64,000 nucleotides of DNA, from assembly GCA_964016885.1 (NCBI GenBank), contig OZ024740.1, forward strand, positions 381,796,001 through 381,860,000, in the 5' to 3' direction. Of this stretch, positions 13,401 through 38,588 are shown in pieces; the first letter of the stretch is position 1, and each line of letters starts with the position of its first letter. This stretch comes from Eledone cirrhosa (Eukaryota). The translations under genes were made by a program, and so were the position numbers. The notes below the pieces were generated by a model that worked only from the letters and a program-made list of their open reading frames with translations, did not search any database and was not told where the DNA came from.

Positions 13401-14078
13401 ATTTTAGTAAACGGTGAACCCTTAAAAATTAAAGAGCAGACTTTTACTCTGTGTGATTAAATTAAGAACATGATATAATAATGATAATCGTGGGTGTGAA
13501 ATTTTATAGCGGCTCCCCTCAACTCTCCAGGTCAAAATAAAAGCGGTTTTTAATGGACTAGGACTTTTTAGCGACCTCGAACGGATGTGATGTAATTTTG
13601 ACCTCTATGTGTTTAAACGTAGACCGCTTACAGCCGGAACAAATAACACAAAGCGTTTTCTTCGACGTTCTAGCGACTCTACCACACGGCCGTCTTTGAA
13701 TATCCGTAAAGAATTCAGATCGACCCCGGTATATTTTTGTAGTGACTGGTAAATTTGTCGTTCGCGTGTTGTCGAGACGCTAGGTTACATGACAATACAC
13801 AGACACAGATTCAAGCGTGAATGCAGATATCGACAAACACACACACACACATCTATCTCACTCACTCACTCTCTCTCTCTCTCTCTCTCTCTCTCTCTCT
13901 CTCTCTCTCTCTCTCTCTCTCTCTCTTTATATATATATATAAATATATGCAAAGTTTTATTTAAATTGTTGGGTTACAACGAGTAAATAATTATAACTGA
14001 TATAAAAGCACTCAACAAGTATTTGGAGTATATTTACGATATTAAATAAATGGAAACTATATTTATAAAACCATATTT

Positions 14079-14142
14079 ATTTCATTATATATATTTCAGG
14101 GATATCATATTAAAAATATGGTATGCCTTCATCAGACAAAAT
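14079..14142 (-). ncRNA. Type I hammerhead ribozyme, family B
   Basis: Reverse complement of 14823-14886. Confidence 0.75.
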
Positions 14143-14822
14143 ACAATATAAACAGTCTTATAAATAGATAGATTTGACATACCTTACAACTTCAACTTCC
14201 ATTTAAAAAGTTGATTTGGTAGTGAAAAATGTTAAGGACAGTTATAAAAAGAAAGAAAGAAAGAAAGCGAAGCAAAAGAAGAAATGCATGCAACGAAAAA
14301 CAGAGAGAGATAGATATAGAGAGATAGATAGAGAGAAGAAATTCATGTAAAGAAAAAACAGAGAGAGATAGATAGAGAGAGAAAAAAGACAGAGGGAGAT
14401 AGATAGAGAGAGAGAGAGAGAGAGAGTAGAGAGAGAGAGAAAAATAGAGAGAGATAGATAGAGATAGAGAGAAAGAAAATAGGTAGTTGGGCACCAACTA
14501 TCCCTATCTATATCTATCTCTCTCTATTTTTTCTCTCTCTCTCTTCTCTCTCTCTCTCTCTTTTTTCTCTCTCTCTCTTCTTTCTCTCTCTATCTGTCTC
14601 TCTCTGTTTTTTCTTTACATGAATTTCTTCTCTCTATCTATCTCTCTATATCTATCTCTCTCTGTTTTTCGTTGCATGCATTTCTTCTTTTTCTTCGCTT
14701 TCTTTCTTTCTTTCTTTTTATAACTGTCCCTAACATTTTTCACTACCAAATCAACTTTTTAAATGGAAGTTGAAGTTGTAAGGTATGTCAAATCTATCTA
14801 TTTATAAGACTGTTTATATTGT

Positions 14823-14886
14823 ATTTTGTCTGATGAAGGCATACCATATTTTTAATATGATATCCCTGAAATATATATAATGAAAT
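14823..14886 (+). ncRNA. Type I hammerhead ribozyme, family B
   Basis: attttgt ctgatga aggcataccatatttttaatatgatatccct gaaa tatata ta atgaaat; short palindromic stem III as in dimer-forming PLE HHRs. Confidence 0.78.
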
Positions 14887-15087
14887 AAATATGGTTTTAT
14901 AAATATAGTTTCCATTTATTTAATATCGTATATAAATATATATATATATATATATTCAAAAGTTTTATTTAAAATTGTTGGGTTACAACAAGTAAATATT
15001 TTATAACCGATATAAAGCACTCGACAAGTTTTTCGAGTAGATATACGATATTAAACAAATGGAAACTATATTTATAAAACCATATTT

Positions 15088-15151
15088 ATTTCATTATACA
15101 TATTTCAGGGATACCATATTAAAAATATGGCATGCCTTCGTCAGATAAAAT
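15088..15151 (-). ncRNA. Type I hammerhead ribozyme, family B
   Basis: Minus strand: attttat ctgacga aggcatgccatatttttaatatggtatccct gaaa tatgta ta atgaaat. Confidence 0.75.
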
Positions 15152-16341
15152 ACAATATATAAACAGTTTTATAAATAATTTTGATGTACCATAAATATAA
15201 GCGACCATTAAGATAGGAGGCCATATGTATTAACATGCATATAGAAAGCTTACAGAGTCTATTTTATCTGTTCATGTGCCTGTATGTGTGCATAGAGATG
15301 CTGGAATACTCACGCAGATATCTTGTATATACATATATATATATATATATATATAGGTATAGTTCTGTATATGTTACAGATATGCATAATATTAAATACA
15401 TGAACGGTAATCATAGTTGTGAGGGCAGGAATATTAATCGTTTATTTTTTTTATGTATATATATAGTTAAATTTTTTATAACACAAGGAAACTTTTTTTT
15501 TTTTTTTTTATGACACAAGAAATTATAGAGTTGATCACGTAAAGTCATGTGTATGTCTATATTATCGACTAGAGCTAGACATAACTTTCTCTTTTTCTTT
15601 TTTTCAGAAAGTACATATACGTATATATATATTTACATATATATCTCCGCATTTTTATAAATAGGGTAATTTTTTGAAGGTTTATCTTAGATTTTGGTAC
15701 ATTGACCCCAGAATTTTAAACTAAACATATGGTCATTATTGAGCAAAGTTATTTTCTCACTTTATATATCTATGTCTCATTCATGAATATTGATATTTAC
15801 ATTCTATTACCCAGTTCATATGAATTGATAATTCAAATTGATATGACATGACGTAAAGATGTAACTGTATCCTCTCTCTAGATATATCTCTTTCTCCTCT
15901 CTCTTTATATATGATGAAGTTTTATGTATCTGTCGCTTTGATTTTGCCTCTCATATTTCTCTCTTATTTCTCTCTTGGTTTTCACCTCCCCCTATATAAT
16001 TATATTTTCTCTCCCTCTTTCTTTTCCTCCCACCTCTCCCTCTCTCTGTTTTCTCTTTATCTCAATTTTTTCTTTCTCTCTGTTTTCTCTCTAACTGTGC
16101 TTAACACTATAACTAAATAATTACTGTACTCTCTCTATATATAGTACTCCCTCTCTCTTTCTCTCTCCCCTATTTCTCTCTGTTTTTCTTTACATTCTTT
16201 CTCTCCGTCTTTTTTTCTAACTGTGCTTAACACTATAACTAAATAATTATAAACACTTCGCTACCAAGCCAGCCTCCTATCTTAATGGTCGCTTATATTT
16301 ATGGTACATCAAAATTATTTATAAAACTGTTTATATATTGT

Positions 16342-35647: not shown

Positions 35648-36118
35648 AAGTATGTATAGTATATTTGCCAATATACCGTATATTTAATTAAAAAAGCCGA
35701 TAGCGTATGGTCTTCTAAATGTTTTTAATTAAACGTACAGTTTATTGCCAAATATACTATACATACATTTATGTATACATCGCTATTTCAGAGCACCAAT
35801 CCTAATATATAATTTTTGCTGGACCGGCAATCGCTCTGTATAATCCGCTCCTGATTATTACTGGAATTCTATAAGAATCCAGTTTCTATAATTTTCGGCG
35901 AAAGCAGGCGGTTGGCGACTCTGATCATCGCCAACCAGCGTGAAACATTCTTTTAGCTTCTCTCCCTTCTTTCTCCGCGATAAAGTGACATAGTCACTAC
36001 TTTAAAACAGATAGCATATGGTCTTCTAAATATTTTTACTTAATCATATAGTATATTGCCAAATATAATATACATACATTCATGTATACATCGCTATTTC
36101 AGAGCACCAATCCTAATA
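35648..36118. repeat. Inverted plus direct repeat element between (TA)n tracts
   Basis: 35648-35693 inverted at 35721-35766; 35699-35807 directly repeated at 36010-36117. Confidence 0.7.
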
Positions 36119-36174
36119 CTATATATATATATATATATATATATATATATATATATATATACACATATATTAAT

Positions 36175-36360
36175 AATTGTTTCTACTATTTGCACAAGGC
36201 CAGCAAATACCCAGTACATTACTGGTACATTATTTTATCGACCCCGTAAGGATGAAAGGCAAAGTTAACCTCGGTGGGATTTGAACTCAGAATGGCAAGG
36301 GCCGTAACTCTAAGCGTCAAGGCAATGCGTCCGACCCTCTACCGATACTGTCAATTCACC
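36175..36360 (-). mobile_element. tRNA-derived SINE, main family
   Basis: Full match to the other copies. Confidence 0.9.
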
Positions 36361-36846
36361 GATGAATTAAAACACATAAAATTTGTTAGAATTTTGTTTC
36401 TCAATAAGCGAATTCAATAGACATTATCCAGAGCCATAATAAATCAAATGAAAAAGATATATGTTTATATATATGTAGAAAGAAAGAACCATATATCGTA
36501 TAGGAAACACAGTATATTGTATATATACCAAATACATATTCCATCGAAAAATATGTACTCAGGTGGAATCATTAGAGAGACCTTATAGCGCTATTTCATA
36601 TTGAGTATTTTTACATAGATACATATATATATATATATATATATATATATATATATATATATATATATATATATATATATATATATATTTATTTATTTAT
36701 TTACGTAGACCACGGAGCGTATGCGCATGGACGCATCTGTACCGTGTCGTATTTATGACAGTATTGTATAACCTCAATGTACGAGAACAGAGCCGTTATA
36801 TGTAAAAGAAATCAAAGAACGCCTACATACTCATACAATTTTATTT

Positions 36847-36891
36847 GCTGACAATGTTTCATCCATACCATTGGGCAGGAATCATCAGAGC
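36847..36891 (-). ncRNA. Type I hammerhead, family C, in a PLE-type terminus starting near 36703
   Basis: Minus strand: gct ctgatga ttcctgcccaatggtatggat gaaa cattg tc agc; predicted cleavage GUC|AGCAAAUAAA. Confidence 0.72.
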
Positions 36892-38391
36892 TTTATAAAC
36901 AAAAATACAGTGCTGAGTATAAGCTCTACCAAGCTTAGTCACATGAACATTAGAAATACAATAGAGGGTAACAAGAGGGAGATCGGAAATGGCGAGTATG
37001 GAGAATGCATAGTGGGGTTGTTATTCAGCACTACAGCTAAATGCAATGGTACAGGCAGATTTGTTAACAAGATGCAGAAGCACGTGTGGGCACACACAAG
37101 CAAAAAGTATAAACAATAGTTAAAACATAATAATAAAGTAAAAGGAAAATAATAATATAAAGACATAAACAAATTAAAAAAGAAAAAAGAAAAAGTTTTA
37201 AAGCACACAAAAAACAAAGGAAGCTATGCGTTGGTCACTATATATAACAGGTGATTTAGTTCTCCATAACTTAGAGTTATAGAAATACTAAAAGGCTCCC
37301 AAGGTACCTTCAGAAAGCCTAAATGGGATTTTAATCCTCCCCATAGTATACATAATGAAGGAATACTAATAGGTTACGGAATTATGTGCTAAACCTATAT
37401 ATAGACAAGTACTACATAAATACAAGCCAAACACAAGCAAAGCGGGGTTATTGCATGATCAAGTTAAAGCAAGAATACATAACAAAAATGGTTTAGTTCC
37501 TAAAAAAACACACATCTGGCGAGGCGTCACTACATATGTGTATCTACCGTAGAGTTTAGTCCAATCGGTTTCATATACAGTCCAATCGGTTTCATATGCC
37601 TCGATTGTCTAGGAGTTATAAAGATAGTGGATTATCCGTAGATAGTAATTCGGTCCAGAGTTTACAACATATGTAGATCGTCCGTAAAGTGCAATCCAGT
37701 CGGATTTATACGATCACCAACACATAACATCACATATAGTTACATGCAATACAGGCTGAATTTACACATCAAAAAAATCCCCACATGTTCAAAATCCCAG
37801 ATCGTGAAGTACAATGTGTCCAAGTTGCAGCTCCAGATTCTGTACAACCAAATTCGTCACAACTAATCCAGCCGCGAACACGTCAAAACAATGCCAGGTT
37901 AAGTGTAGCAGTAGTTCACCGTTGACCAAAAGCATACAGCACGTGGATTAACAATCTATACATAATAGAAAATAACACAAAGTACTCAAATCAGTAAATC
38001 CACCAGGTACCCCAGTATGTATATTAGGTGGGGTCATACCCAAACAGGCATACAAAAATTATATAAGACAGCTTACATACCCCGCGGAAATTTAGGAATT
38101 CGGCTCCATAAAAAATAAACACACGCTACTTCGTTCTTCACCGCTATGGGTATATCCACATCAATTCATGACGTAGAAGGTACATACGGGGTGTTACTCC
38201 CTTCAGTCACCAAATAATGACGTTACAGTGGTAATGTCTAAACATAATATATATATATATATATATATATATATATATATATATATATATATATATATAT
38301 ATATATATATATATATATATATATATATATATATATATATATATATATATACATACATATATATATATATATATATATATATATATATATA

Positions 38392-38588
38392 TTATGTTTA
38401 GACAACAGAACGTGTGTATAAGATACATGTGTCCTGTCGAATTTATGACAGTATTTAATTAGCTCAATGCTTGAAAGCAGAGCCATTATATGAAACAAAA
38501 ACAAAGAGCGCTTACATTTTCAATTAATCTTTATTAGCAAATAAAGATTAATTGATGATGTAAGCGCTTTTTGTTTTTGTTTCATATA
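38392..38588. mobile_element. Family C tail-only fold-back insertion in (TA)n
   Basis: Palindrome 38487-38535 / 38540-38587 plus an extra left tail homologous to 36745-36845 (atttatgacagtatt...ctcaatg...cagagcc.ttatatg). Confidence 0.75.

What the first reader, a model, noticed from the sequence alone, without database searches (positions are those of the whole stretch)
13950..38588. Shared fold-back rule: the short arm stops at TA 3-8 nt before a conserved CTC...TYGAG hairpin
Seen in five insertions from four families (13950-14930, 14957-16448, 21375-21576, 21607-24642, 38392-38588). One arm runs into (TA)n about 45-55 nt after the HHR position; the inverted arm continues 80-100 nt further. 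The extra part begins with a hairpin: tactc-N12-gagtgc (14008-14030, 15017-15039), cactc-N16-gagtac (21422-21448), tactc-N32-gagtgc (21656-21698), gctc-N14-gagc (~38462-38483). The same hairpin follows the HHR at 2930-2951 and 31431-31453. Known: PLEs show inverted pLTRs with a tail extension, and internal initiation of reverse transcription has been reported for a PLE. Inference: this hairpin is a cross-family cis element that positions the PLE RT to prime internally on a nicked (TA)n. I do not know of it being described.
Basis: partly seen in the sequence, partly recalled or inferred. Interest (0 to 1): 0.8.

Follow-up and report, generated by a model that had tools for sequence, protein, structure and literature searches.

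The report
Twin RNA hairpins set retroelement ends
In one clade of Penelope-like jumping genes, the two ends of an insertion usually stop about 6-7 bases before one of two copies of the same small bulged hairpin, which likely tells the copying enzyme where to start on its RNA and would explain the long-unexplained one-sided 'tail' of these elements.

Summary
These are Hydra-clade Penelope-like elements (PLEs). The motif is a bulged hairpin: R-CUC / variable upper stem and loop / U-N bulge / GAG-Y. It covaries across families, and a model trained on this genome recovers it in held-out metagenome elements.

New here: tandem, read-through copies carry a second hairpin just 3' of the long (tail) end in 5 of the 6 window families. 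Both ends usually lie 6-7 nt 5' of a CUC (291 of 369 ends at 12 sites), so tail length equals hairpin spacing (67-99 nt). Inverted insertions pair one short with one long end (80 of 83; none long-long).

Most likely the reverse transcriptase binds each hairpin and starts just upstream, one cDNA per target strand (inferred, untested). Against: family E lacks the second motif, and no biochemistry exists for this clade. Nine literature searches found no description. Earlier scan notes report PLE fold-back stubs in other genomes, but not this hairpin rule.

The parts
13950..14930 (.). Family A fold-back insertion in (TA)n: long (tailed) arm on '-' at left, short arm on '+' at right
   Evidence: family has a Hydra-type ORF in L286
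14008..14030 (-). Hairpin 1 (CUC, upper stem, UU bulge, GAG); short-arm end lies 6-8 nt 5' of CUC
14078..14143 (-). Type I hammerhead motif of the long arm (mirror copy at 14822-14887 '+'); limits read from the sequence
14957..16448 (.). Second family A fold-back insertion; hammerhead cores start at 15144 ('-') and 16349 ('+')
15017..15039 (-). Hairpin 1, UC bulge (first upper pair broken in this copy); short end 7-8 nt 5' of CUC
21375..21576 (.). Family C mini fold-back; joint lies inside the hammerhead
   Evidence: family ORF in L281
21422..21448 (-). Hairpin 1 of family C; short end 6-9 nt 5' of CUC
   Evidence: not a training row, E 0.0011
21607..24642 (.). Family B insertion: short tailed arm on '-', 2.4-kb arm with the short end on '+'
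21656..21698 (-). Hairpin 1 of family B with a long loop; other folds compete; this copy's short end is 9-12 nt from CUC (family mode 5-7)
22045..23436 (+). Open frame whose 3' part encodes a Hydra-type GIY-YIG endonuclease (CxCx5C, YxG, CxxC, CxH); RT part missing
38392..38588 (.). Family D mini fold-back, truncated 3' of the hammerhead
38462..38483 (-). Hairpin 1 of family D; short end 4-9 nt 5' of CUC
2859..2985 (+). Family E long end: hammerhead, hairpin 1 (2930-2951), tail, (TA)n
6876..7005 (-). Second family E long end (hairpin model hit 6912-6943); not in the finding
31373..31590 (-). Diverged family A long end with hammerhead (core at 31560) and hairpin 1 (31431-31453)
34384..34536 (+). 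Family F long end: hammerhead, hairpin 1 with UA bulge (CUC at 34479), tail, (TA)n; not in the finding
   Evidence: intact 714-aa ORF of the family in L183
36745..36900 (-). Relative of family D with hammerhead and hairpin 1 (model hit 36766-36800); not in the finding

Best explanation
Hydra-clade PLEs carry two copies of a bulged hairpin motif between the hammerhead and the start codon, and most insertion ends lie 6-7 nt 5' of one copy; the hairpin is likely an RNA binding site that makes the element's reverse transcriptase start just upstream of it, and the two starts would each be primed on one strand of a cut (TA)n target. Shown: two hairpin copies, the fixed offset at both, tail length equal to hairpin spacing, short+long pairing with either end carrying the ORF. 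Inferred: protein binding to the RNA hairpin; internal initiation helped by 0-6 nt of TA pairing; priming at hairpin 1 on one target strand and at hairpin 2 on the other; joining of the two truncated cDNAs head to head. This gives the inverted repeat with a tail on one side only. Because finished ends lack hairpin 2, only tandem read-through copies would supply a complete two-signal template.
For: Offset: 291 of 369 repeat-flanked ends at 12 motif sites in 7 families are compatible with 6 or 7 nt, and the commonest range of all 12 sites overlaps only at 6-7. Each family offers 6-20 TA/AT runs, of which 0-2 fit that offset. Family E uses a site with a single base of overlap and skips a TATA directly before the CUC.

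Second hairpin after the long end: A, B, C, D, F; also L191, L239, L200, L252 and metagenome L326, L327 and two elements in L328. D, F and B were first found without selecting for CTC.

Structure: compensatory changes in the upper stem and the outer pair; 2-nt bulge best; 14 G-U against 5 A-C favour the sense strand. 93.8% of cells paired, 0 of 500 shuffles as high. RNAalifold predicts the same bulged fold.

Natural control: an internal hammerhead copy in family F without an intact hairpin but with a TATATATA at the expected place is read through in 57 of 57 occurrences.

Pairing: 80 long+short, 3 short+short, 0 long+long. Either arm can be the longer one inside: short 15, long 12, equal 3 in C and E. 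ORF-bearing arm short in 4 and long in 1 of 5 family-F pairs.

Precedent: the Anolis Poseidon protein cuts both strands, starts at two internal sites that match the tail ends, and needs RNA about 55 nt downstream of the start (PMC11167929).
Against: Family E has no CUC/GAG hairpin after its long end (only a GCAC/GUGC stem), yet has tailed ends; they scatter more (8 of 27 at 6-7 nt from the nearest CUC). 78 of 369 ends miss the 6-7 window, and 109 further ends could not be classed. The upper stem is only 1-2 pairs or absent in some copies (L333, L327, L328). The B hairpin and the two-hairpin region of C have competing folds. Of six published Hydra consensus sequences read by eye, three show the motif, one is deviant and two show none. 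The 24 hairpins are related, so shuffle p-values overstate support. No Hydra protein has been assayed, and sequence cannot separate an RT start from a nuclease cut at the same offset.
Confidence: 0.62

Rival explanations
1. The hairpin is read as DNA (single strand or cruciform) by the GIY-YIG endonuclease, which cuts a transposition intermediate 6-7 nt from it; the ends are resolution cuts, not RT starts.
For: Craig 2021 ascribes the tail to EN-mediated resolution. Frangieh 2024 cites Pyatkov 2004 for EN needing the tail sequence in DNA (that paper itself was not held). A fixed offset is typical of nucleases (established knowledge). The unpaired 3' flank GAG-Y-R-C-U is conserved and near-palindromic.
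Against: Hairpin 2 is absent from tailed ends, so it would have to sit in a discarded part of a longer cDNA. G-U excess on the sense strand. In vitro RT starts match both tail ends in the Poseidon element.
Confidence: 0.15
2. The hairpin directs an RNA cut (host nuclease, the element's protein, or an unknown small ribozyme) 6-7 nt upstream, creating RNA 3' ends for ordinary target-primed reverse transcription.
For: A motif lying wholly 3' of a cut is the layout of HDV-like ribozymes (recalled). The offset is constant.
Against: Independent cut RNAs would pair at random, yet 80 of 83 pairs are long+short. No Rfam match. The motif is only 20-35 nt. The Poseidon reaction uses unprocessed RNA.
Confidence: 0.1
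3. One cDNA folds back and copies itself (self-priming, possibly on an antisense template as proposed for Adineta Penelopes), stopping at hairpin 1; the motif is a stop signal or a promoter-like DNA element.
For: Inner ends of the two arms often lie within about 15 nt of each other. Self-priming at palindromes was proposed in PMC3846280. The tail scored as a basal promoter in PMC2377424.
Against: It does not explain the same offset at hairpin 2. Short-ended arms often hold far more sequence than the tailed arm (window B; L183, L346, L351, L353). Inner length is symmetric between the arm types. The upper stem covaries, which a linear promoter motif does not need.
Confidence: 0.08
4. Ends are set by the hammerhead or by chance TA homology, and the hairpin is a bystander.
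For: Most junctions have 1-6 nt of overlap with (TA)n.
Against: HHR-to-CUC distance varies 28-62 nt while the junction offset does not. Long ends lie far from the hammerhead. 57 of 57 read-throughs at a hairpin-less hammerhead copy. Most TA runs are unused. Spacing between CUC and GAG is not a multiple of three, so no coding constraint.
Confidence: 0.03

Closest known systems
Hydra clade of C-terminal-EN Penelope-like elements (Craig et al. 2021, PMC8557442; passages, section 11 and supplement parts 1, 2, 52, 53 read)
   Same: Single ORF with RWK/RWR, DKT, CxCx5C, CxxC and CxH; canonical hammerhead; (TA)n targets; tandem and inverted structures; tail at either end.
   Different: The paper gives a 30-40 bp tail and suggests EN resolution; no hairpin or stem-loop is mentioned in its main text (0 hits). 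Here tails are 67-99 nt and equal the spacing of two conserved hairpins.
Poseidon element of Anolis carolinensis, PAc (Frangieh et al. 2024, PMC11167929; main text parts 1-3 of 4 read, figures not seen, .gbk supplement unreadable)
   Same: Internal RT starts at two sites that match the tail ends; both strands cut at AT-rich DNA; RNA 3' of the start is required.
   Different: PAc starts inside an AC-rich stem-loop within the ORF, and no conserved cis element or offset was defined. By eye its template has a CUC...GAG stem about 8 nt 3' of the +111-118 site, without the U-N bulge; a weak lead only.
3' stem-loops that recruit the RT of non-LTR elements (R2, L2/CR1 and partner SINEs) and L1 twin priming (recalled, not looked up)
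   Same: Structured RNA chooses the template; two cDNAs primed on opposite target strands give an inversion.
   Different: Those signals lie 5' of the start and are copied. Here the signal lies 3' of the start, is left out of the product, is duplicated, and the two arms overlap in sequence.
Hepadnavirus epsilon and telomerase template-flanking elements (recalled)
   Same: A stem-bulge-stem RNA fixes where an RT starts; PLE RTs are sister to telomerase RT (PMC8557442).
   Different: Epsilon primes by protein within the bulge, and telomerase copies a short template repeatedly; no sequence or Rfam similarity found.

Membership tests
Hydra-clade PLE | Single ORF with RT and C-terminal GIY-YIG EN | tested here: met
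   Stop-free 714-784 aa frames with YRDD and YxG in families A, C, E, F; Pfam gave no hit on the window's EN fragment; B and D seen only in pieces
Hydra-clade PLE | RWK motif and DKG changed to DKT | tested here: met
   RWK/RWR and DKT in 7 of 7 ORFs examined; RWK at the start of B
Hydra-clade PLE | CxCx5C linker, CxxC and CxH around the EN core | tested here: met
   CxCx5C and CxH in 7 of 7, CxxC by the pattern used in 6 of 7, all three in the window's B fragment
Hydra-clade PLE | Canonical hammerhead in the pLTR; (TA)n insertion | tested here: met
   motif only, cleavage not tested; Rfam models gave no hit
Hydra-clade PLE | Placement in an RT phylogeny with the reference clades | not tested
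   No tree was built; assignment rests on the diagnostic motifs of PMC8557442 section 11
PLE inverted pLTR with one-sided tail | Inverted 5'-truncated copy; extension at one end only, either end | tested here: met
   80 of 83 pairs; ORF-downstream end short 24, long 14
PLE inverted pLTR with one-sided tail | Tail 30-40 bp | tested here: not met
   67-99 nt in six families; 55-71 nt in metagenome elements
RT-positioning RNA element | Conserved, covarying secondary structure on the sense strand | tested here: met
   relatedness of rows not corrected
RT-positioning RNA element | Binds the RT and sets the start site | not testable with these tools
   Needs in vitro assay
Known Rfam family or small ribozyme | Match to a curated model | tested here: not met
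   0 hits at gathering score in the window; only sub-threshold, repeat-type hits in five loci

The most novel reading that the evidence does not exclude
Hydra PLEs carry a duplicated, phylum-spanning RT ruler: two downstream bulged hairpins launch two reverse transcriptions from one RNA onto the two strands of a cut microsatellite. That one device produces the inverted repeat, the one-sided tail and the need for tandem copies, and it is a portable 25-nt signal for choosing an internal start site.
Probability: 0.5. Interest if true: 0.88.

Novelty: new variant of a known kind. Interest (0 to 1): 0.77.

Why it matters
How PLEs make their inverted repeats and one-sided tails is named as an open problem in the papers read (PMC8557442, PMC2377424). 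The only in vitro study located internal starts but not the signal that places them. This gives a defined 20-35 nt candidate, a numerical rule (6-7 nt), and a direct experiment: move, break or duplicate the hairpin and watch the start site. It also lets curators predict both ends of a Hydra element from its 5' UTR. Because PLE RTs are sister to telomerase, an RNA element that places the template from its 3' side bears on how internal templating evolved. The motif is abundant: 39 model hits at E<=0.1 in 600 kb, roughly 2 x 10^5 per 3 Gb by extrapolation.

Tried and rejected
Rfam: nothing. Pfam on four window frames: nothing significant. First metagenome scan with one protein: no relative; the second, with an alignment, gave 8 loci, 5 with a hammerhead. 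An exact pattern for the B continuation found nothing; a DNA query did. A protein search of the own genome returned only family F. RNA runs: no RNA holder listed. Contigs of three runs of unrecorded kind show (TA)n loose ends at the same family C positions (L213:1447 in one run, 1527 in two), but the best holder may be the genome's own source. Homodimer prediction for residues 4-300: no verdict. The first hairpin alignment misaligned two rows, which were left out of the model, as were the two long-loop hairpins. The first junction script used one reference allele per family and shifted F by 3 nt; it was redone allele-aware. Inner-joint analysis failed for family A and partly for B and F because of the references; counts use only 30 clean C and E pairs. 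In one search the joint probability includes a floor for family E; without E it is about 10^-12.6, and families are not independent. Clade of the motif-less hammerhead families: inconclusive. Coding constraint, hammerhead ruler and pure TA homology were rejected (see rivals).
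Full report
Observation. The window lies in a 3-Gb genome rich in (TA)n; the host was not determined. The window holds three further PLE ends with the same hairpin: 6912-6943, 34471-34504 and 36766-36800. 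I call the families A (13950, 14957, 31373), B (21607), C (21375), D (38392, 36745), E (2859, 6876) and F (34384).

What the elements are. Full-length copies of A, C, E and F fetched from the genome have stop-free frames of 714-784 aa with RWK/RWR, DKT, YRDD, CxCx5C, YxG, CxxC and CxH. The window's B fragment has the same endonuclease motifs. These are the diagnostic features of the Hydra clade in Craig et al. 2021 (PMC8557442, section 11). No tree was built. Inverted copies, a tail at one end, hammerheads and (TA)n targets are all known for PLEs.

The motif. Anchoring only on CUC and the nearest downstream U-N-GAG, without a stem filter, 24 hairpins from this genome and from metagenome elements pair at the first upper position in 22 (13 C-G, 9 U-A) and at the second in 21 (five pair types). 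The pair outside CUC/GAG holds in 23 (16 G-C, 7 A-U). A 3' bulge of 2 fits best (22/21/16 paired, against at most 10 at the first position for other sizes), and G-U outnumbers A-C 14 to 5 on the sense strand. On a 12-row alignment 93.8% of cells pair, no shuffle of 500 reaches that, and slid controls reach at most 52%. RNAalifold predicts the same bulged fold unaided. The rows are related, so these figures overstate significance.

Held-out test. A model built only from this genome found all seven hairpins with both stems that I had marked in metagenome loci L326, L327, L328 and L332, on the right strand at E<=0.0066. It also found three hits belonging to a second element in L328, and missed the sense-strand hairpin of L333, which has no upper stem. 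In 600 kb taken at round coordinates it gave 39 hits at E<=0.1; 42 of the top 52 are followed by a microsatellite within 110 nt (repeats are dense here, so that alone is weak). Of six Hydra consensus sequences in File S7 of Craig et al., read by eye, the coral Hydra-2_Amil and the sea cucumber Hydra-2_Ajap show the hairpin after the hammerhead, and Hydra-1_Ajap shows two in tandem before its ATG. The copepod element is deviant. Hydra-1_Amil and Hydra-1_Obim end soon after the hammerhead and show none.

The second hairpin. If a downstream hairpin sets the short end, the long end should have one too, visible only in tandem copies that read on into the ORF. It is there in D (4 of 5 continuing copies, one of them altered) and F, and in B (GAG intact in 18 of 20 loci); these were first seen without selecting for CTC. 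It is there in A (11 of 12 loci intact) and C (10 of 12 loci read were continuing copies; 366 pattern matches), where the search required CTC but not the rest. It is also in L191, L239, L200 and L252 from the sampled regions and in L326, L327 and both elements of L328. Family E is the exception: its continuing copies have only a GCAC/GUGC stem. Hairpin spacing is 67-99 nt and equals tail length.

The ruler. Because ends overlap the (TA)n target, each junction is a range. At 12 motif sites in 7 families, 291 of 369 repeat-flanked ends are compatible with 6 or 7 nt before the CUC; 109 further ends were not flanked by a clean repeat or came from diverged subfamilies and were left out. The commonest ranges of the 12 sites overlap only at 6-7. 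At E's second site 8 of 27 fit. HHR cut to CUC varies from 28 to 62 nt (D's mode of 31 there is an upstream GCTC, the true value is 57). Each family offers 6-20 TA/AT runs, of which 0-2 fit the offset. Family F carries an internal hammerhead copy with a TATATATA at the matching place but no intact hairpin; 57 of 57 occurrences read through it, most in loci chosen by the ORF start, some overlapping. That copy also has a non-cleavable triplet by inspection, so it is an imperfect control.

Pairing. Outward-facing pairs of one family were long+short in 80, short+short in 3 and long+long in 0 of 83. One short+short call was a mis-pairing on inspection (L346). Queries for A, C and D included tail sequence and under-sample short+short; for B, E and F the count is 32 of 35. 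The end downstream of the ORF was short in 24 and long in 14 of 42 F loci (4 not classed), and the inverted partner was of the other type in 5 of 5. In 30 clean C and E pairs the short-ended arm reached further inside in 15, the tailed arm in 12, equal in 3; most joints show 0-6 nt overlap or a few extra bases.

Mechanism. Frangieh et al. (PMC11167929; main text parts 1-3 of 4) showed for a Poseidon element that the protein cuts both strands, starts at two internal sites matching the tail ends, and needs RNA to +172 while starting at +111-118. The simplest reading of the Hydra data is that the protein binds each hairpin and starts 6-7 nt upstream, with one cDNA per target strand, later joined head to head (confidence 0.62; that the hairpin sets the ends by some route, about 0.9). 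Fold-back copying from a tailed cDNA cannot give short-ended arms that hold the whole ORF opposite a short tailed arm, nor the offset at hairpin 2. A nuclease cut on DNA (0.15) or RNA (0.10) at the same offset cannot be excluded from sequence.

Novelty. Nine full-text searches found no description of this hairpin, its duplication or the offset; the library lacks most subscription journals, and Pyatkov 2004 was not held. Passages of PMC3846280, PMC4209133 and PMC2377424 were read; figure images and the .gbk supplement of PMC11167929 were not visible and could show related structure. Earlier scan notes list PLE fold-back stubs in other genomes, none on this rule in the eight shown of 43; three narrower look-ups were empty. 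Verdict: known elements, an apparently undescribed duplicated cis signal that makes the origin of the PLE tail directly testable.

Noticed in passing
L031-L279 pairs of families B, C, E, F: The inner ends of both arms usually lie within about 15 nt of each other and cluster at family-specific places at or 5' of the hammerhead; possibly run-off at the RNA 5' end.
   Followed up: partly
3' flank of the hairpin, e.g. window 15012-15021: The unpaired flank GAG-Y-R-C-U-Y is conserved (C 19, U 20 of 24 at positions 3 and 4) and near-palindromic; a possible protein contact or RNA-RNA pairing site.
   Followed up: no
L213:1445-1560: In family C the 5' strand of hairpin 1 can pair with the 3' strand of hairpin 2, an alternative long-range fold.
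   Followed up: no
L182 (CUC at 6721, '-') and L191:3480-3560: Hairpin 2 of families F and H keeps stem and bulge around a loop of 60-70 nt.
   Followed up: partly
L146, L262, L006 (hammerhead cluster 8): A hammerhead family without the motif also has short and long ends, with a different 7-bp hairpin starting about 6 nt after the short end; clade not settled.
   Followed up: no
window 60031-62507 '-' and 16499-17196: A PLE endonuclease fragment of another type (not Hydra linker) whose 3' end stops at (TA)n at the same place in two copies; no hairpin-model hit.
   Followed up: partly
L277 (195-nt units), L215 (257-nt units): Tandem mini-arrays made of hammerhead, hairpin region and ORF start only; could reflect repeated template jumps or circles.
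   Followed up: no
window 5811-5975, 12997-13414, 27764-27959, 40737-40926, 48940-49130 and others: About 15 copies of a roughly 190-nt SINE-like repeat.
   Followed up: no
window 34582-34834, 41799-41843, 63232-63999: Further fold-back repeats of other sequence.
   Followed up: no
window 46939-48028 '+', 50400-50849 '-', 62330-63130: Decayed LINE-like reverse transcriptase fragments, by inspection of the translations; Pfam gave no hit on the two pieces tested.
   Followed up: no
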